Positions 3,771 to 46,604 of a stretch of 46,604 nt of DNA are shown piece after piece. The translations under genes and the position numbers were made by a program. How positions within the stretch are numbered: the first letter of the stretch is position 1; every line of letters begins with the position of its first letter. Source of the stretch: Escherichia phage vB_EcoS-UDF157lw; the sequence record OQ243221. The stretch is one strand, 5' to 3'. The notes beneath the pieces are model-generated. The model ran no database searches and was not told the DNA's origin. It saw nothing but the letters and a program-made list of their open reading frames with translations.

Positions 3771-3846
3771 GTTCTGCTGGCGTAACAGGATAACGCAGAG
3801 ACCTCCTAAGTCTCAGTTACTGGTTCGAGTCCAGTGCGGAACACCA
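3771..3846 (+). tRNA. tRNA-Arg (anticodon CCU, reads AGG)
   Basis: Hand-folded cloverleaf: acceptor GTTCTGC/GCGGAAC (one G-U), D-arm GCGT/ACGC with GG in loop, anticodon stem GAGAC/GTCTC with loop CTCCTAA (U33, CCT, A37), T-arm ACTGG-TTCGAGT-CCAGT, discriminator A, encoded CCA. Confidence 0.85.
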
Positions 3847-38992: not shown

Positions 38993-40126
38993 ATGGCTAT
39001 AGCTAAAATCACCAACGAAGAGTTAAAGCAAGAACTGGCTAACGGTATGACTAACAAGGCAATCGCAGAGAAGTACGGTATGAATATTCGTAACGTAGAG
39101 CTGCGTCGCAGCAAGTTGGCTAAGGCTGGGGATGGTCACGGTCGCGATGTGAGTAACCTAATTCCTCAGGGCTACATGGTTAAAGGTGTATCTAGCCTTG
39201 TTGATAATGATGGCAATGTGAAGTTGCAATGGGTTAAGTCCTCTATTGATGCAGAGAAGCTTGAGGAGATGATGAATCAAGCGCGAGAGGCATTCTCTAG
39301 CGAGCTACCAAAAGAAAAAGCAGTTAAATCTGAAGGTCTGAATTTTGATGAAGATACTTTAGCTATGTATCCAGTATTTGACCTTCACATTGGCGCAATG
39401 GCCCACAAGCATGAGTGCGGAGAAAACTACGACACAGCAACGGCAGAGAAAGTAATGAACGATTATTTTGACTACGCCGTACAGAAATCTCCAAATTCAA
39501 AGAATGCTGTACTAGTGCTAGGAGGTGATCTGCTTCATTATGATTCTTTGGAAGCCAAAACTCCAGCCAGTGGTCACATCCTGGACAGTGACAGTCGCTA
39601 CGCCAAGATTGTTTATGTTTGCATTCGAGCGGTTCGCCGCGCAATTCGAAACATGCTTAGCAAACATGAAAACGTAGAGGTTAAAGTTATATCTGGTAAT
39701 CATGATGAAAGTGGTATGGTTTGGTTGCGGGCTGCGCTTGCTGCATTTTATGAGGAAGAGCCACGCGTTAGTATTGATGTTAGTCCCGCGGCAATGATGG
39801 TAACTAAGTTTGGTTCTACAATGCTTGGTTTCACTCACGGGCATCAAATGCGTAAAGCTGATACTCGCCTTTCGGTTATGGCTACTGACTGGCGACGTGA
39901 CTTTGGTTTAAGTGATTATGTATACACCCACTCAGGCCACTGGCATTCACAGAAGATTACAGAGACAAATCTTGGTATTGATGAGGTTCATGGTCAGCTT
40001 GGTTCACCAGATGCATATAGTGCGAATGGTGGATGGCGCTCACAAAGGCAGGCCGCGGTAATCATCTATCATAAAGAGTTTGGTGAGGTTGGTCGCTTTA
40101 TCTGCCGTCCAGAAATGTTCAAATAA
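38993..40126 (+). CDS. Calcineurin-like metallophosphoesterase with N-terminal HTH-like domain (377 aa)
   Basis: Phosphoesterase motifs D-L-H (FDLHIG), GGDLLH, GNHDE, GH.H (HSGHWH); N-terminal about 110 aa with HTH-like TNKAIAEKYGMNIRNVELRRSKL. Confidence 0.8.
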   Translation: MAIAKITNEELKQELANGMTNKAIAEKYGMNIRNVELRRSKLAKAGDGHGRDVSNLIPQGYMVKGVSSLVDNDGNVKLQWVKSSIDAEKLEEMMNQAREAFSSELPKEKAVKSEGLNFDEDTLAMYPVFDLHIGAMAHKHECGENYDTATAEKVMNDYFDYAVQKSPNSKNAVLVLGGDLLHYDSLEAKTPASGHILDSDSRYAKIVYVCIRAVRRAIRNMLSKHENVEVKVISGNHDESGMVWLRAALAAFYEEEPRVSIDVSPAAMMVTKFGSTMLGFTHGHQMRKADTRLSVMATDWRRDFGLSDYVYTHSGHWHSQKITETNLGIDEVHGQLGSPDAYSANGGWRSQRQAAVIIYHKEFGEVGRFICRPEMFK

Positions 40127-40145
40127 TATCACTTTTTGTTAAAGC
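40127..40145 (+). promoter_or_regulatory. Motif variant TATCACtttttGTTAAA without clear -10
   Basis: Upstream half degenerate (TATCAC); no TATAGT-like hexamer at the expected spacing. Confidence 0.25.
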
Positions 40146-40191
40146 CCTTCGAGGCTTTTGAGATGCGTCAGCTACAGATATAGGAATCAAA

Positions 40192-41837: not shown

Positions 41838-42223
41838 TTCTGGCAATTATCTTGCTGACAGGGTGCTCTGCTATGTCAGCCATTTCTGATTTCTTACCAG
41901 TAAAGGATGGCGTAGAGGCAACCGCGCAGGTTGGTGAGTCCAACCAGAAAACAGGAGTTGGATTGTCAAATCAAACAGACAAATCTAGCTCAACAGAAAG
42001 CGACATGCGCAACTCAACTAACAGAGACGTAGATTCATCAAGCCAGAAAAAGACAGCCGCTACAGGACTATCAGCCAACACAATAACAGCTGAAAAGATT
42101 GAAATTCATAGCACTGAAAATTCTGGCTTTGACTCTTTAGTCTGGGGTATTCTGGCTGGATTAGTTTCAGGTTTGCTAACTTACTTCGCTTTAAGATTCG
42201 CAGGAAACAAAAAAGGAGCCTAA
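41819..42223 (+). CDS. Unimolecular spanin (u-spanin, T1 gp11-like, 134 aa)
   Basis: N-terminal lipoprotein signal with lipobox LTGC and C-terminal TMD LVWGILAGLVSGLLTYFAL, the defining u-spanin topology. Confidence 0.75.
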   Translation: MRFGVVVLAIILLTGCSAMSAISDFLPVKDGVEATAQVGESNQKTGVGLSNQTDKSSSTESDMRNSTNRDVDSSSQKKTAATGLSANTITAEKIEIHSTENSGFDSLVWGILAGLVSGLLTYFALRFAGNKKGA

Positions 42224-42238
42224 TGGCTCCTTTATTTT
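42208..42238. terminator. Bidirectional terminator between convergent rightward and leftward operons
   Basis: GGAGCC-taat-GGCTCC flanked by AAAAAA upstream and TTTATTTT downstream. Confidence 0.65.
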
Positions 42239-42572
42239 ACGCGAACAGTTGGTCGTCTGTCATTTCTTTTATGGTCATCATCTCATTGGTGTACTTATCA
42301 CTCTCACCTCCGAGGCACCTAAAGCTAAAACCGAATGGTCGCTTCGTGCTTCCTTTGCTCCAGTAACTGCCATTAACTCCATCGATGTAACCTTCAGTCA
42401 TGCATCTTGCCAGAAACTCCTTTGACGCAGATGATGCAAAGTAACGCGCATTAACTCCAGCTGCCTTAGCCATTCTTTCACATTCTTTGTGGCGGTAAAT
42501 GAATACCGCCAGGTGCTGCCTGTTAAACTTTTCGTAGCTCTCGCAGAACTTGAACACATCAAGGATGAACAT
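42237..42572 (-). CDS. Hypothetical protein (111 aa)
   Basis: ORF in track, last gene of the leftward operon. Confidence 0.5.
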   Translation of the reverse strand: MFILDVFKFCESYEKFNRQHLAVFIYRHKECERMAKAAGVNARYFASSASKEFLARCMTEGYIDGVNGSYWSKGSTKRPFGFSFRCLGGESDKYTNEMMTIKEMTDDQLFA

Positions 42573-42576
42573 TTAA

Positions 42577-44160
42577 TTACCCCAGCAGCCGTGGATTGAT
42601 ATATACCTTGTCACCAATCAGGCAGGTATAGTTTTTATCATCAAGCATCGGGAGTAAGTGGTCTTTAATTTTAGCCATAACACCAGCCTGTGACTCGAAA
42701 GGTCGAACCTTACGCGCAGCTTCATAAAGTGAACGCAAACCCACAACTCCTTTACTGTTCTTGCCTTGCTTGATAAGGATATCAATTAACTTGTTCATCT
42801 CAGCGTTATCGCCAGCATGACCAGCTGCGTTAGCAGAAGATAAGTAAGTCTTGCTAAGTTCTTCAAACATCAATAAAGCCTCCTGCATCGTTTCCAGTCC
42901 AATCTCCCTGGACTTCTGCGGACTACCGCCATTTGGATTAAACCAGTTACGTATGGTGTGAAGAACGGCAGCAAGGCGAATAACCTGTTTATCCATTTTA
43001 CCTAGTGCGCCACGGAGCATTGTGTGTGAATACTTGCCGCCATCCGCAAGGTGTGGCTCCATTTCCTGTCGAGCACGGTTAAGGTGCTTCATTGCTGAGT
43101 TACTAATAGTCAACTTCACATCTTGCTCACTCATAATTTCATGAACAAGACGGAAGTAATCAGCCTTCAACGCTCCGTCAATCGGCTCATATGTTGACTC
43201 GCCATTATCATCGACGAAAACACGCTCACCAAGGAATGACTTTTCACGCACAAGCAAGAAACGTTCGGATACACCAATACCGCGAGCACCAGCATTCATG
43301 ATTGCGACTATTGTTTCATCCTGCGCAATTACAGAAATACACCCCATAGCAATAAAGCTCATGTTGTTCTCTGCGTTCGCACGCGCGATAGATACGTTAC
43401 CAGCATCCCAGGCCTTAAGTACCAGTTCGCTGTTTGTTTTCTTTGTTCCATCACCATAGGTCATGCCCAGCAGTGAGTTGACGCTCGTCGCCTCATCCGA
43501 GATGACAGCGAAGCTACCCTGACGATGGTTAATGCGTGCCAGACCTTCAGGAGTAGTATCAGATACAGGGAATACGATGTCGCAAAGTTTCTCGAGCTTA
43601 TCTTCCAGCTCCTCCTTCTCCTCAAACAAACCAGCCATCTCAGAAGGCGACTTCTCCTGCTTCATTTCTTTAGCCAGAGCCGACAGCTTGGCCATAATCT
43701 TTTTACGGTCACGCTTACGCAGATCGTTTAGTCGCTCAGTCTCTGCAATCATTGGAGCAAGAGACAGCGAGTTAATGGCAGATTTACCAGTTGATGGAGG
43801 CTGGCTGGTCACTACATACAGTGATGTTGGTTGTTGAGTTCCGTGATACTCAACCGTAAAGCGACCTAACATAGCTGCCGAGATGCAACCAAGGAAGTGC
43901 ATATAAGCAGATGATTCAGGAAACTGAACAGAACGAGCAATGTTGCTTGATAGTTTGCCAACTACATCATAGTCGTTACCAAGCGAGATAACAGGATACT
44001 TGTCGCCAGTAGAATCAATCTCAACCGGAGCTTTCCAGAATGATGCGCTCTGGCGATAACCGTTCGCATTAATAGCAACACGTAAAGGAGGTAATCCATC
44101 CTGAGCGGCAACAGCCATTACTTGTTCAACAGTCAATTTGTCATCATTAAAATCAAACAT
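42577..44160 (-). CDS. Putative replication-associated P-loop NTPase (helicase/primase-associated, 527 aa)
   Basis: Deviant Walker A PPSTGKS and Walker B-like FAVISDEATS; RBS GAGAGAG before ATG 44160; N- and C-termini are paralogous to the 1036-1596 protein. Confidence 0.6.
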   Translation of the reverse strand: MFDFNDDKLTVEQVMAVAAQDGLPPLRVAINANGYRQSASFWKAPVEIDSTGDKYPVISLGNDYDVVGKLSSNIARSVQFPESSAYMHFLGCISAAMLGRFTVEYHGTQQPTSLYVVTSQPPSTGKSAINSLSLAPMIAETERLNDLRKRDRKKIMAKLSALAKEMKQEKSPSEMAGLFEEKEELEDKLEKLCDIVFPVSDTTPEGLARINHRQGSFAVISDEATSVNSLLGMTYGDGTKKTNSELVLKAWDAGNVSIARANAENNMSFIAMGCISVIAQDETIVAIMNAGARGIGVSERFLLVREKSFLGERVFVDDNGESTYEPIDGALKADYFRLVHEIMSEQDVKLTISNSAMKHLNRARQEMEPHLADGGKYSHTMLRGALGKMDKQVIRLAAVLHTIRNWFNPNGGSPQKSREIGLETMQEALLMFEELSKTYLSSANAAGHAGDNAEMNKLIDILIKQGKNSKGVVGLRSLYEAARKVRPFESQAGVMAKIKDHLLPMLDDKNYTCLIGDKVYINPRLLG

Positions 44161-44203
44161 TATTATCATCTCTCTCTAAATGCCCCCGAAGGGGCTTGAC
44201 TAT

Positions 44204-44383
44204 TTACTTGATACGAACTTCAATCATCTGGCCTTTATGAGGAAGATACAGCTTTGCGCGACCTCTAATCATTACGGTGATGATATTCTCCTTAAGGTCA
44301 ACGTGAAGTACTTTGCGGAACAGTGGCCCCATTTTTACCATCATGCCAGGTTTGATGTTTTCGATAGTAGTCATGATATCCAT
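44204..44383 (-). CDS. Hypothetical protein (59 aa)
   Basis: Hand-translated MDIMTTIENIKPGMMVKMGPLFRKVLHVDLKENIITVMIRGRAKLYLPHKGQMIEVRIK; preceded by promoter element and CATCGAAACGA leader. Confidence 0.4.
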   Translation of the reverse strand: MDIMTTIENIKPGMMVKMGPLFRKVLHVDLKENIITVMIRGRAKLYLPHKGQMIEVRIK

Positions 44384-44421
44384 TTTTTAGCCCTTTTAAT
44401 GTATTTCGTTTCGATGAAGAG

Positions 44422-44465
44422 AATATATCAATTTTTGTTGTTAAGTCCTTTAGCAAAAAGTGCTA
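44422..44465 (-). promoter_or_regulatory. Composite promoter-like element (minus): TAGCACtttttGCTAAA, 23 nt, TGaTATATT, leader CATCGAAACGA
   Basis: Reverse complement read directly. Confidence 0.5.
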
Positions 44466-44582
44466 TTAAAGACCAACCAGACATTTGCCAACTACAACAG
44501 CGATTGCGCCCATGAAGCCAAAGAAACCAAACTTAATTACTTGTTCCATTACCGCATCAACTGCTTTAGAGATGTTTTTCAT
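44466..44582 (-). CDS. Small hydrophobic protein (38 aa, MKNISKAVDAVMEQVIKFGFFGFMGAIAVVVGKCLVGL)
   Basis: Strong RBS AAGGTGA; C-terminal TM-like segment; the track N-terminal extension translates through a terminator hairpin and is rejected. Confidence 0.35.
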   Translation of the reverse strand: MKNISKAVDAVMEQVIKFGFFGFMGAIAVVVGKCLVGL

Positions 44583-44612
44583 TTTGTTCACCTTAGTTTT
44601 TGTCTTCTTGAT

Positions 44613-44663
44613 GGAAACAAATATACCCGCCGAAGCGGGTACTGTCATTAGCAAAAAGTGCTA
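44613..44663 (-). promoter_or_regulatory. Overlapping terminator and promoter-like element (minus): TAGCACtttttGCTAA, hairpin ACCCGC-ttcg-GCGGGT, TATATT
   Basis: The hairpin and U-rich tract sit inside the spacer between the palindrome and the -10-like hexamer. Confidence 0.45.
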
Positions 44664-44870
44664 TTTTTTTAAGTGCCCTGGCGCATAGCATTTTCCATCC
44701 TTCTTATGCAAAACCCACCCAGCATATTTAAGTTGCCTTGCACAATCAGAAAAGTTCTCGCCCGCAGCGTCCGTATAGTGTGGCATAAAATAAGAACCAT
44801 CATCATTTGACTCAGTTGAGCACTTCTTACAGTCGCAATAAACAGCGATGGAATAACCTGAAACAATCAT
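44661..44870 (-). CDS. Hypothetical Cys-rich small protein (69 aa)
   Basis: CDCKKC ... C ... C pattern suggests a zinc-binding protein. Confidence 0.45.
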   Translation of the reverse strand: MIVSGYSIAVYCDCKKCSTESNDDGSYFMPHYTDAAGENFSDCARQLKYAGWVLHKKDGKCYAPGHLKK

Positions 44871-45220
44871 TTGTAAGCCGCCTCAAACTTATACATCCCA
44901 TAACCCACATCAAAGCCAACTTCTTCATCACGCGTCAACTGCCAGCCCTCGCCGTCTTCATCATAAATATACCCAGCGTTACGACCAAGTGATGCAGTCA
45001 TTGATACCTGGTAACGCTTACCCTTACTGAAACTCTTCTTGAGTGGTGACTTGTGGTTCACGAAAGTGCAAAGCAAAGTCTTGGTCTTGACGTAACGACC
45101 CCGGCCAGTGAGATTTTGCCATTTACCATGAATCTTGATTTGCTCAATACCATCTTTAACGCGAGCTTTAAACAGATTGTTATCTGAGCTGATCCAGTTT
45201 TTAGTGATAGTGGTAGCCAT
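44867..45220 (-). CDS. Hypothetical protein (117 aa)
   Basis: ORF in track; overlapping stop/start with the downstream gene. Confidence 0.5.
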   Translation of the reverse strand: MATTITKNWISSDNNLFKARVKDGIEQIKIHGKWQNLTGRGRYVKTKTLLCTFVNHKSPLKKSFSKGKRYQVSMTASLGRNAGYIYDEDGEGWQLTRDEEVGFDVGYGMYKFEAAYK

Positions 45221-45245
45221 TACTATTTTCCTTTTTGGTTTGTTA

Positions 45246-45548
45246 TTAGTTAGCGTTATGACGTTCGATATAGTCGCGGATTGTTTCGCCTACGCTTTTA
45301 GCGGCACCAAAAGTGCCCTTTGCGTGGCGTGAATCGCGGTACGTCTGGAAGAATTTACGAGCGATGTTTGCGAACATTGAACCAGTCACGCGAGCATCAC
45401 CGAAATTTGTTTCGATAGCGTTGCTAATGCCATCCTTGAACTCATTTTCAGTCATGAACATCTCTGCCATGCCAGCAGTCTCGAAAAGGTTAGCTAATTC
45501 ATTCATGTTGTTATGGTCTTCGGCTGTAAACAGGTTCATGTTAATCAT
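45246..45548 (-). CDS. Hypothetical acidic protein (100 aa)
   Basis: ORF in track; preceded on the minus strand by promoter element and CATCGAAACGAAAC leader. Confidence 0.5.
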   Translation of the reverse strand: MINMNLFTAEDHNNMNELANLFETAGMAEMFMTENEFKDGISNAIETNFGDARVTGSMFANIARKFFQTYRDSRHAKGTFGAAKSVGETIRDYIERHNAN

Positions 45549-45581
45549 CTTCGTGATTCCTTAGTTTCGTTTCGATGAGAT

Positions 45582-45625
45582 GAATATACAATAAAAGCCC
45601 CGAAGGGCTTTAGCAATTCGTGCTA
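45582..45625 (-). promoter_or_regulatory. Composite promoter-like element (minus): TAGCACgaaTTGCTAAA, hairpin AGCCC-ttc-GGGGCT, TGTATATT
   Basis: Reverse complement read directly; the TAG of the motif is the stop codon of the upstream 50-aa ORF. Confidence 0.5.
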
Positions 45626-45775
45626 TTTCTTTGCTGCTTTTGCAATTGCCTTCTGGACGATGTTGAAGCTCTCAATCAAATCTTCTTTGAAGTAGTCACC
45701 AACAGGCCAACCCTTACCGCTGTACTTTGCTATAGTTTCTAGATCGTAATAGTTCAAATCAGATGGTTTAAGCAT
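45623..45775 (-). CDS. Small hypothetical protein (50 aa)
   Basis: Hand-translated MLKPSDLNYYDLETIAKYSGKGWPVGDYFKEDLIESFNIVQKAIAKAAKK; start abuts the upstream stop (TAAATG). Confidence 0.35.
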   Translation of the reverse strand: MLKPSDLNYYDLETIAKYSGKGWPVGDYFKEDLIESFNIVQKAIAKAAKK

Positions 45776-46015
45776 TTACCTCACCTCATCAAAAGTTGCG
45801 ACACCAGGGATAAACATTCCGACCTTCCAACCTGCGATAGCAATCCATCCAGAATCGTGCTTGTGCGGTCGCTCGGCGCCATTAATCACCCACTCGTTCG
45901 GGATTGTCTTGCCGTTAATGATTAGCAGCTCAGCTTCGTATACAGAGCCTTTTACAAATGGCGTCAAAACCTTTTTGTCTGTACTGTTAATAACGTTTGT
46001 GCAGCGAATTTTCAT
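45776..46015 (-). CDS. Hypothetical protein (79 aa)
   Basis: ORF in track. Confidence 0.5.
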   Translation of the reverse strand: MKIRCTNVINSTDKKVLTPFVKGSVYEAELLIINGKTIPNEWVINGAERPHKHDSGWIAIAGWKVGMFIPGVATFDEVR

Positions 46016-46025
46016 ATCTCAATCC

Positions 46026-46205
46026 TCAAATAAATGGTAAACATTCGACGCAGCCAAGTCCATCGCAGCACAGAAATTCATCTTCTGACTGGAATTGCTT
46101 AGCCAAATCAATGTCCAGCTTTCCGCGCAGCACAAGGTTGGTGTAAACTTCGTTAAGTCCAATCAGTGCGCATTCGTGGCGCAAATCGTCTTTATCAATC
46201 TTCAT
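46026..46205 (-). CDS. Small Cys-rich hypothetical protein (59 aa)
   Basis: Hand-translated; C-terminal CCDGLGCVEC; start overlaps the upstream stop. Confidence 0.4.
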   Translation of the reverse strand: MKIDKDDLRHECALIGLNEVYTNLVLRGKLDIDLAKQFQSEDEFLCCDGLGCVECLPFI

Positions 46206-46389
46206 ACCGCTCTACCTCGAAGTTGTATACCATTACGTTTCTATCATGCTTGTTCTTTATCACCATTGACTCAAGCTCTTCGTATACAGCCACTACATTG
46301 TAAACACCACCAGGCTCAAGGCCGTAGAATTCGTATTCTTCATCGTCAAAACCATCCGTTTTACTTAGTGCTGTTATTTTTACCTTCAT
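46195..46389 (-). CDS. Hypothetical acidic protein (64 aa), first gene of the leftward operon
   Basis: RBS GAGGAG; promoter element immediately upstream. Confidence 0.5.
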   Translation of the reverse strand: MKVKITALSKTDGFDDEEYEFYGLEPGGVYNVVAVYEELESMVIKNKHDRNVMVYNFEVERYED

Positions 46390-46417
46390 ATCTATCTCCT
46401 CGTTGTTGATGAGTTTA

Positions 46418-46460
46418 CTATAGCCTTGCCATCCCCATTTTTCTTTAGCAAAAAGTGCTA
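46418..46460 (-). promoter_or_regulatory. Composite promoter-like element (minus): TAGCACtttttGCTAAA, 21 nt, TATAGT, leader CATCAACAACGAGGAG
   Basis: Reverse complement read directly; drives the leftward small-gene operon. Confidence 0.5.
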
Positions 46461-46604
46461 TTCGTCAGATTTATGGATTGTTGCAGGCATTGCGATGATT
46501 AGCATGACTATTACACATAAAGCAATATTTCATCGAGTGCAACAGGTTTATTGATTGTTGCCAGTTTGGCAATGATGGATGGATGGATTGAATGAAAGGA
46601 GGTT

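What the first reader, a model, noticed from the sequence alone, without database searches (positions are those of the whole stretch)
42237..46389. Leftward operon of about 11 small genes of unknown function, several Cys-rich or membrane-targeted
From the promoter at 46418-46460 the minus strand encodes a chain of 38-117-aa proteins with overlapping stops and starts, including two Cys-rich products (44661-44870; 46026-46205) and a 38-aa membrane peptide, ending with the replication ATPase. Internal composite promoters overlap terminator hairpins. Such early small-gene arrays typically hold host-takeover and anti-defence functions; none could be assigned a function here.
Basis: inference. Interest (0 to 1): 0.5.

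Follow-up and report, generated by a model that had tools for sequence, protein, structure and literature searches.

The report
Small-gene cassettes beside a phage helicase
This is the leftward arm of a Rogue1-type (T1-like) coliphage: ten small genes plus a DUF3987 helicase in four promoter-headed cassettes, an ordinary and already annotated region that matches the Bas11 region holding the CapRel immune trigger Gp54.

Summary
The window is a complete Rogue1-like coliphage genome (Rogunavirus, Drexlerviridae; 99.2% identity). The eleven minus-strand ORFs exist at the stated coordinates, with ribosome-binding sites. Seven of them give dN/dS of 0.03-0.21.

It is not one operon. Four copies of the family-wide repeat ATAGCACnnnTTGnTAA head four tandem units: A-D, E-G, H and I-K. 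Each copy is followed 21-22 nt later by a -10-like hexamer. Two UUCG-loop terminators sit inside the next promoter. The ATPase is not the last gene; K follows it.

In 56 related loci only F, J (DUF3987 helicase family) and K are universal. B is probably widespread. A, C, D, E, G, H and I are patchy cargo.

No small product has a demonstrated function. The anti-defence reading is plausible but indirect. This is a known kind of region and of modest interest.

The parts
46445..46461 (-). P1 repeat ATAGCACTTTTTGCTAA. A -10-like TATAGT lies at 46422-46417. Heads unit A-B-C-D.
46195..46389 (-). Gene A, 64 aa, acidic (pI 4.4), phrog_14327. Accessory: 11 phage records only.
46026..46205 (-). Gene B, 59 aa, acidic, with a C-terminal CC-x4-C-x2-C...PF knuckle. 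phrog_9053. Probable ortholog of Bas11 gp50.
45776..46015 (-). Gene C, 79 aa, phrog_4448. Found in Rogunavirus-like phages. dN/dS 0.10.
45623..45775 (-). Gene D, 50 aa, phrog_4548. dN/dS 0.05. Its TAG stop lies inside the P2 repeat.
45583..45626 (-). P2 composite unit: repeat at 45626-45610, UUCG-loop terminator hairpin at 45611-45594 (-10.2 kcal/mol), and -10-like TATATT at 45588-45583. Heads unit E-F-G.
45246..45548 (-). Gene E, 100 aa, phrog_12926. Accessory (27 phage records). dN/dS 0.08.
44867..45220 (-). Gene F, 117 aa, basic (pI 9.6), all-beta, phrog_2684. Present in all 56 Drexlerviridae loci. Predicted fold matches the Bas11 Gp54 crystal structure.
44661..44870 (-). Gene G, 69 aa, conserved C12/C14/C17...H66, phrog_926. 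Mobile family found in more than 400 phage records of unrelated families.
44620..44664 (-). P3 composite unit: repeat at 44664-44648, UUCG-loop terminator hairpin at 44642-44623 (-14.6 kcal/mol), and -10-like TATATT at 44625-44620. Heads gene H.
44466..44582 (-). Gene H, 38-aa predicted membrane peptide, phrog_11986. Weakest gene call: only identical copies are known.
44422..44466 (-). P4 unit: repeat at 44466-44450 and -10-like TATATT at 44427-44422. Heads unit I-J-K.
44204..44383 (-). Gene I, 59 aa, basic, phrog_8121. Homologs at about 46% identity in 157 mostly Klebsiella T1-like phage records.
42577..44169 (-). Gene J, 530 aa, DUF3987 (PF13148) P-loop protein. Walker A PPSTGKS at residue 124 and Walker B FAVISDE at residue 220. 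Presumed helicase.
42237..42572 (-). Gene K, 111 aa, phrog_2794. Starts 4 nt after J. Universal in Drexlerviridae but a narrow family with no fusions.
42212..42233 (-). Terminator hairpin with a T-run closing the cluster (-14.3 kcal/mol). It sits back to back with the end of the lysis cassette.

Best explanation
The region is the leftward arm of a Rogue1-type Drexlerviridae genome, between the lysis cassette and the divergent control region. It is built as four tandem transcription units rather than one operon.

Each unit starts with the family-wide element ATAGCACnnnTTGnTAA, followed 21-22 nt later by a TAnnnT hexamer, a conserved leader and an SD. A unit of this type works as a promoter with host factors alone (inferred from published Bas11 work). 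Two units have the previous unit's UUCG-loop terminator packed between the repeat and the -10 hexamer.

The content is a mosaic.
- A conserved core: J, a DUF3987-family 5'->3' helicase-type ATPase; K, tightly linked and probably translationally coupled to J; F, a basic two-part beta protein with a Gp54-like barrel; and probably B. This core most likely serves phage DNA replication or its start (inferred).
- Exchangeable small cargo genes: A, C, D, E, G, H and I. They are swapped among relatives at gene ends and at the conserved promoter units. By analogy with the syntenic Bas11 genes, they are most likely dispensable host-interaction or counter-defence factors, and they are potential targets of immune sensors such as CapRel (inferred, not shown).
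For: - Identity: 99.2% to Rogue1, with concordant annotation in relatives.
- Units: the repeat occurs 14 times against 0.2 expected and is always co-oriented with the local genes. In 13 of 14 copies a 4-5/6 match to TATAAT follows at a fixed 20-22 nt. The three long intergenic gaps are exactly P2-P4. The hairpins are stable. The repeat is already published for TLS, T1, Rtp and Rogue1 (PMC11447400).
- Promoter function: the only intergenic DNA upstream of Bas11 gene 54 is such a unit. The cloned 'native promoter' fragment begins at the repeat (primer TZ-58). It drove Gp54-Flag in uninfected E. coli, and upstream escape mutations lowered expression.
- Core versus cargo: F, J and K are in 56/56 loci and the others are patchy. 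A census of 44 loci gave 106 ORF families, one of them in at least 90% of loci and 82 in under 10%.
- J: PF13148 at E=2.5e-42, with Walker A and B motifs. A DUF3987 protein is a proven 5'->3' helicase (PMC11724360).
- Synteny with Bas11: K~gp45, J~gp46 and F~gp48.
- Gp54 is non-essential, and deletions covering it and its neighbours are viable.
- Breakpoints fall at P1-P3 and at gene ends.
- G is mobile across phage families.
Against: - No small product has a demonstrated or homology-inferred function. Pfam, NCBIfam, PADLOC and PDB sequence or profile searches are all negative.
- No window protein is a sequence or profile homolog of Gp54.
- No transcript data exist for timing or for use of the internal promoters and terminators.
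- The TTG(C/T)TA to -10 spacing of 21-23 nt is non-canonical for sigma-70.
- The same repeat also precedes genes elsewhere in the genome, so it does not mark an early class.
- Roles of F and K in replication rest only on conservation and linkage. K shows no fusion to any helicase.
- The breakpoint clustering is not corrected for shared ancestry among the compared genomes.
Confidence: 0.6

Rival explanations
1. The whole cluster is a replication or recombination operon. On this reading the small proteins are helicase accessory factors (loader, origin binder, regulators) and not host-interaction or anti-defence cargo.
For: All genes are co-directional with the DUF3987 helicase. F, K and probably B are conserved across the family. 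F and I are basic proteins.
Against: A, C, D, E, G, H and I are missing from most Drexlerviridae that keep J. G occurs in unrelated phages without this helicase. In Bas11 the promoter-proximal genes can be deleted.
Confidence: 0.15
2. It is a single early operon driven from the promoter at about 46420-46460, and the internal promoter and terminator signals are non-functional look-alikes.
For: The genes are tightly packed and co-oriented. P1 is present. The canonical promoter scan is not enriched.
Against: P2-P4 are as well conserved as P1 and have the same geometry. A unit of this type drives expression on its own in E. coli. Stable UUCG hairpins with T-rich tails follow D and G. Relatives' annotations list the same terminators and promoters.
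Confidence: 0.1
3. Some of the smallest ORFs, H and possibly A, are not real genes but chance ORFs between regulatory elements.
For: H has only 100%-identical copies. A has ten near-identical copies and one diverged copy. Neither gave an informative dN/dS. Rogue1's own annotation calls a plus-strand ORF in place of H and I.
Against: Both have an SD and an ATG at the standard distance from a promoter unit. Both match PHROG families end to end. A has a 53%-identical full-length homolog. H has a plausible membrane-helix composition.
Confidence: 0.1

Closest known systems
Bas11 (Escherichia phage JohannLBurckhardt) genes 45-55, including Gp54, the direct trigger of CapRelSJ46 (Zhang et al., Nature 2024, PMC11578894; PDB 9axb)
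   Different: No window protein is a sequence or profile homolog of Gp54. The promoter-proximal cargo differs completely, except for the probable B~gp50 pair. The window lacks the Dcm-like methyltransferase. F is 117 aa and universal in the family, whereas Gp54 is 66 aa and dispensable.
Drexlerviridae direct repeat aaATAGCACnnnTTGnTAAAA described for phage TLS (PMC11447400)
   Same: The consensus and orientation match, and the repeat lies about 72-85 nt upstream of start codons. The TLS paper states that the repeat also occurs in Rogue1.
   Different: The TLS paper left the role open (stoperator, enhancer or UP element). Here the repeat shows a fixed 20-22-nt distance to a -10-like hexamer. 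Combined with the Bas11 plasmid construct, this points to a promoter that works without phage factors.
PeSL (promoter-early stem-loop) regulatory cassettes in hyperplastic regions of T4-type phages (Arbiol et al. 2010, PMC2839356)
   Same: Compact promoter-plus-terminator-hairpin units lie between small, mostly non-essential genes. Differences in gene content between close relatives are bounded by these units.
   Different: The phage family and the sequence are unrelated. Only P2 and P3 carry a hairpin. The spacing between the upstream element and the -10 is non-canonical. Recombination at the units is inferred from breakpoints only, and no mini-circles have been shown.
AgaPH, a PriCT-DUF3987 5'->3' helicase of a mobile element (PMC11724360)
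   Same: J has the DUF3987 domain with Walker A and B motifs.
   Different: Pfam detects no PriCT domain in J. The primase is encoded elsewhere in related phages rather than adjacent (Bas11 gene 31). No biochemistry exists for J.

Membership tests
DUF3987 (PF13148) helicase family - gene J | Match to the Pfam model above the gathering score | tested here: met
   145.8 bits against a cut-off of 27, E=2.5e-42, covering profile positions 3-352 of 364
DUF3987 (PF13148) helicase family - gene J | Walker A and Walker B (DExx) motifs | tested here: met
   PPSTGKS at residue 124 and FAVISDE at residue 220. The motifs are required for activity in AgaPH.
DUF3987 (PF13148) helicase family - gene J | ATP-dependent 5'->3' DNA unwinding | not testable with these tools
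   Needs biochemistry
Gp54(Bas11) family (phrog_7421) - genes A, C, F, I | Sequence or profile homology to Gp54 | tested here: not met
   BLASTP, PDB phmmer/hmmsearch and hhalign are all non-significant. The best is the F N-terminal half against the Gp54 family, E=0.026.
Gp54(Bas11) family - gene F | Small six-stranded beta-barrel fold | tested here: inconclusive
Gp54(Bas11) family | Binds and activates CapRelSJ46 | not testable with these tools
   Even close Gp54 homologs fail to activate it.
Drexlerviridae promoter-associated direct repeat (TLS DR) | Consensus ATAGCACnnnTTGnTAA, co-oriented with genes, about 76 nt upstream of start codons | tested here: met
   Four copies in the region and 14 in the genome. 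Distance to the ATG is 72-85 nt.
PeSL-like mobile regulatory cassette | Strong sigma-70-like promoter fused to a terminator stem-loop | tested here: inconclusive
   A hairpin is present in P2 and P3 only. The -10 hexamer is good, but there is no -35 at canonical spacing.
PeSL-like mobile regulatory cassette | Gene-content differences between relatives bounded by the cassettes | tested here: inconclusive
   Breakpoints fall at 44665, 45567-45625 and 46384-46395, but also at plain gene ends. They were not corrected for phylogeny.
Known anti-defence proteins (e.g. T4 Stp, via the 'anti-RM protein stp1' label on a homolog of gene I) | Similarity to a characterised inhibitor | tested here: not met
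   T4 Stp gives no alignment to I or to the Roth72 protein even at E=1000. No anti-defence HMM library was available; PADLOC covers defence systems only and gave no hits.

The most novel reading that the evidence does not exclude
The repeat-plus-hairpin promoter units may act as portable recombination joints that shuffle small cargo genes among Drexlerviridae, in the manner of PeSLs. Some of that cargo may consist of uncharacterised counter-defence proteins. Two candidates stand out. G belongs to a Cys/His family (phrog_926) shared with Ackermannviridae, Stx phages and Klebsiella siphoviruses. F carries a Gp54-like beta-barrel, a fold that immune sensors such as CapRel have learned to recognise.
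Probability: 0.2. Interest if true: 0.6.

Novelty: new member of a known kind. Interest (0 to 1): 0.38.

Why it matters
T1-like phages are common therapy and biocontrol candidates, and about half of their genes have no known function. This analysis separates a conserved helicase-linked core (F, J, K and probably B) from exchangeable cargo. It ties the region to the one experimentally studied counterpart, the CapRel trigger Gp54 of Bas11. That gives a short, ordered list for deletion and defence-screen experiments. It also suggests that the long-noted Drexlerviridae repeat is a promoter that works without phage factors and may mark cassette boundaries.

Tried and rejected
- Pfam, NCBIfam and PADLOC scans of all products found only J's DUF3987 domain.
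- PHROGs placed every product in a family of unknown function.
- PDB sequence or profile searches for A, B, C, E, F, G, I, J and K found nothing credible.
- A single-sequence homolog search for G returned only itself. It needed a seeded alignment.
- Foldseek against BFVD for F returned only uncharacterised phage proteins.
- An exhaustive search for K found 18 small clusters and no helicase fusions. Pfam scans of the K and F family members gave only noise.
- hhalign of every window family against every Bas11 family supported only F~gp48, K~gp45 and, weakly, B~gp50.
- F shows no internal repeat at sequence level.
- The label 'anti-RM protein stp1' on one of 176 homologs of I appears to come from AntiDefenseFinder predictions, per the KlebPhaCol methods. 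It is unsupported by similarity to T4 Stp.
- Rfam found no RNA family in the region.
- The canonical sigma-70 scan was not enriched.
- Literature searches found no transcriptome for a T1-like phage.
Full report
**Identity and observation.** The window is a whole genome of a Rogue1-like coliphage (Rogunavirus, Drexlerviridae). Positions 42237-46526 are 99.2% identical to NC_019718 and 96-97% identical to AHS24, C119 and phiKP26. Each has an ATG start and a purine-rich SD-like stretch. Relatives annotate the same genes as hypothetical proteins, plus a 'DNA helicase'. B and G each carry five cysteines, and H has a hydrophobic C-terminal half.

Pairwise dN/dS against diverged relatives is 0.03-0.21 for B, C, D, E, F, J and K. 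G, I and A have diverged protein homologs. H is known only as identical copies and is the weakest gene call.

There are ten small genes plus one large gene. Only A/B and F/G overlap. K, not the ATPase, is the last gene. The array is not one operon.

**Transcription architecture.** The 17-mer ATAGCACnnnTTG(C/T)TAA occurs 14 times in the genome against 0.2 expected. It is always co-oriented with the local genes. Four copies lie in the region, in the only long intergenic gaps (74, 78 and 82 nt) and upstream of A.

In 13 of the 14 copies a TAnnnT hexamer matching TATAAT at 4-5 of 6 positions follows at a fixed 20-22 nt. A conserved leader (CATCGAAACGAAA) and the SD often come next. The stop codons of D and G are the TAG inside ATAGCAC.

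Hairpins with UUCG loops sit between the repeat and the -10 hexamer of P2 (-10.2 kcal/mol) and P3 (-14.6 kcal/mol). A third hairpin closes the cluster after K. The units are therefore P1 with A-B-C-D, P2 with E-F-G, P3 with H, and P4 with I-J-K.

The repeat is already published for TLS, with the remark that it also occurs in T1, Rtp and Rogue1. Its role was left open there (PMC11447400). A canonical sigma-70 scan is not enriched in the region, and the TTGnTA to -10 spacing of 21-23 nt is non-canonical.

One published experiment bears on the repeat's function. The 75-nt gap upstream of Bas11 gene 54 is exactly such a unit. Zhang et al. cloned gp54 'with its native promoter' using a primer whose phage part starts at TAGCACTTTTTGTTAAAACC. 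They detected Gp54-Flag in uninfected E. coli, and escape mutations just upstream lowered expression. I infer that these units are promoters that need no phage factor. That is compatible with early expression but does not prove it.

**Core versus cargo.** I fetched 56 Drexlerviridae loci around the helicase. F, J and K are present in all of them, at 34-100%, 51-100% and 40-100% identity respectively. A, B, C, D, E, G, H and I are detectable only in Rogunavirus and near relatives.

A census of co-oriented ORFs in the 4.2 kb upstream of J in 44 loci gave 106 families. Only one, F, is in at least 90% of loci. Five are in 50-90% of loci, including a Dcm-like methyltransferase that this phage lacks. 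Eighty-two are in under 10%. Some of the ORFs counted are probably spurious.

Homology blocks between the window and its close relatives end at gene boundaries and at the promoter units: 44665 for P3, 45567-45625 for P2 and its leader, and 46384-46395 for the P1 leader and the ATG of A. [quoted passage not shown] The resemblance is suggestive only, because the compared genomes are not independent.

**Individual products.**
- **J** matches DUF3987 (PF13148, E=2.5e-42) and has Walker A and B motifs. A DUF3987 protein, AgaPH, is a demonstrated 5'->3' helicase (PMC11724360).
- **K** starts 4 nt after J. Its family is narrow, with 18 representative clusters of 54-158 aa and no fusions. It has no Pfam or PDB relatives.
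- **F** gave a confident AlphaFold model (pLDDT 88.4, pTM 0.80, eleven strands).
  - BFVD returned only uncharacterised proteins of T1-like phages, some of them single-domain and 65-75 aa long.
  - No sequence or profile signal links F to Gp54.
- **G** has homologs in 416 phage records. They include Ackermannviridae (Vi01_032), Stx phage 933W (L0068, in the stretch between exo and xis) and Klebsiella siphoviruses.
  - A seeded search gave 120 clusters, none named and none with a Pfam domain.
  - C12, C14 and G51 are invariant. C17, W52, A63, P64 and H66 are nearly so.
- **B** shares three features with the Bas11 gp50 family: a GLN(E/K) motif at the same position, a C-terminal four-Cys knuckle and a terminal PF. 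hhalign gives E=1e-3 over 52 columns. B is therefore a probable ortholog of gp50.
- **I** has homologs at about 46% identity in 157 records, mostly Klebsiella T1-like phages. One of these records labels the protein 'anti-RM protein stp1'. The label appears to come from AntiDefenseFinder predictions, according to the KlebPhaCol methods. T4 Stp has no similarity to it, so I do not rely on the label.
- **A, C, D, E and H** have no informative relatives.

**Link to known biology.** In Bas11 (MZ501085) the order on the minus strand after the lysis genes is:
- gp45, the K homolog;
- gp46, the J homolog;
- gp47;
- gp48, the F homolog;
- a Dcm-like methyltransferase;
- gp50 to gp55;
- the divergent region.

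Gp54 is a 66-aa, non-essential six-stranded beta-barrel that directly binds and activates the CapRelSJ46 defence. Deletions removing gene 54 and neighbouring genes are viable. The authors suggest it may inhibit another defence system (PMC11578894).

The window's cluster is the Rogunavirus counterpart of that region. It has a different promoter-proximal cargo and no Gp54 homolog.

**Conclusion.** The organisation is well supported: four promoter-headed cassettes and a mosaic of core and cargo. The functional reading has two parts, and both are inferred:
- a core replication module of J, K, F and perhaps B;
- dispensable host-interaction or counter-defence cargo in A, C, D, E, G, H and I.

This reading rests on conservation patterns, synteny with Bas11 and analogy. 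Nothing was shown for any small product. The region is a known, already annotated kind of phage accessory cluster and is of modest interest. The most useful new leads are:
- the Gp54-like fold of the universal protein F;
- the widespread, unnamed Cys/His family of G;
- the evidence that the Drexlerviridae repeat is a host-read promoter and a cassette boundary.

Noticed in passing
window 1580, 2423, 19900, 27062(-), 35071, 37467, 38152, 38838, 40126, 40390 (and the four copies in the region): The repeat's core is a small palindrome (TAGCA-N5-TGCTA). It sits at a fixed 20-22 nt from a -10-like hexamer, so TTGnTA lies 21-23 nt from the -10. That is too far for a normal -35 element. How RNA polymerase uses it is unexplained.
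   Followed up: partly
L062 (Bas11) 40040-40056 and 19 other sites: Bas11 has 20 copies of the same repeat. The copy upstream of gene 54 starts the 'native promoter' fragment that Zhang et al. cloned with primer TZ-58. This experimental link is not made in the TLS paper that described the repeat.
   Followed up: yes
window 44303-44515 (+): RefSeq Rogue1 annotates a plus-strand gp67 here, with its own promoter, in place of the minus-strand genes I and H. I has 157 diverged protein homologs, so the plus-strand call is probably wrong.
   Followed up: partly
window 44182-44195 (-): A GC-rich hairpin with a UUCG loop (GCCCC-TTCG-GGGGC) lies between I and the helicase start, without a T-run. All the hairpins in the region share UUCG loops. 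It may be an attenuator or an RNA-stability element.
   Followed up: no
L030:4187-4699, L032:4185-4688, L052:4191-4688: HNH-type endonuclease-like ORFs of 165-170 aa, judged by eye from the motif, are inserted between the F homolog and the gene upstream of the helicase in three relatives. This marks the slot as an insertion hot spot.
   Followed up: no
related loci, e.g. L025:3297-4076; L062 38013-38726: A Dcm-like C5-cytosine methyltransferase lies just upstream of the F homolog in 37 of 44 related loci. It is absent from this phage, where gene E occupies that position.
   Followed up: partly
window 3771-3846 (+): A tRNA-Arg (anticodon CCT) gene.
   Followed up: no
window 46426-46554 (+): A 42-aa plus-strand ORF, annotated as a membrane protein in AHS24, overlaps the P1 promoter unit on the opposite strand in the divergent control region.
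   Followed up: no
L062 39320-39586 and 40056-40367 (-): Bas11 gp52 and gp55 are paralogs (hhalign probability 94.8%). This shows duplication within the cargo part of the syntenic cluster.
   Followed up: no
window 40126-40160 (+): One repeat copy on the plus strand is followed by a hairpin but has no -10-like hexamer at the standard distance. It may be a terminator-only or decayed unit upstream of the lysis genes.
   Followed up: no
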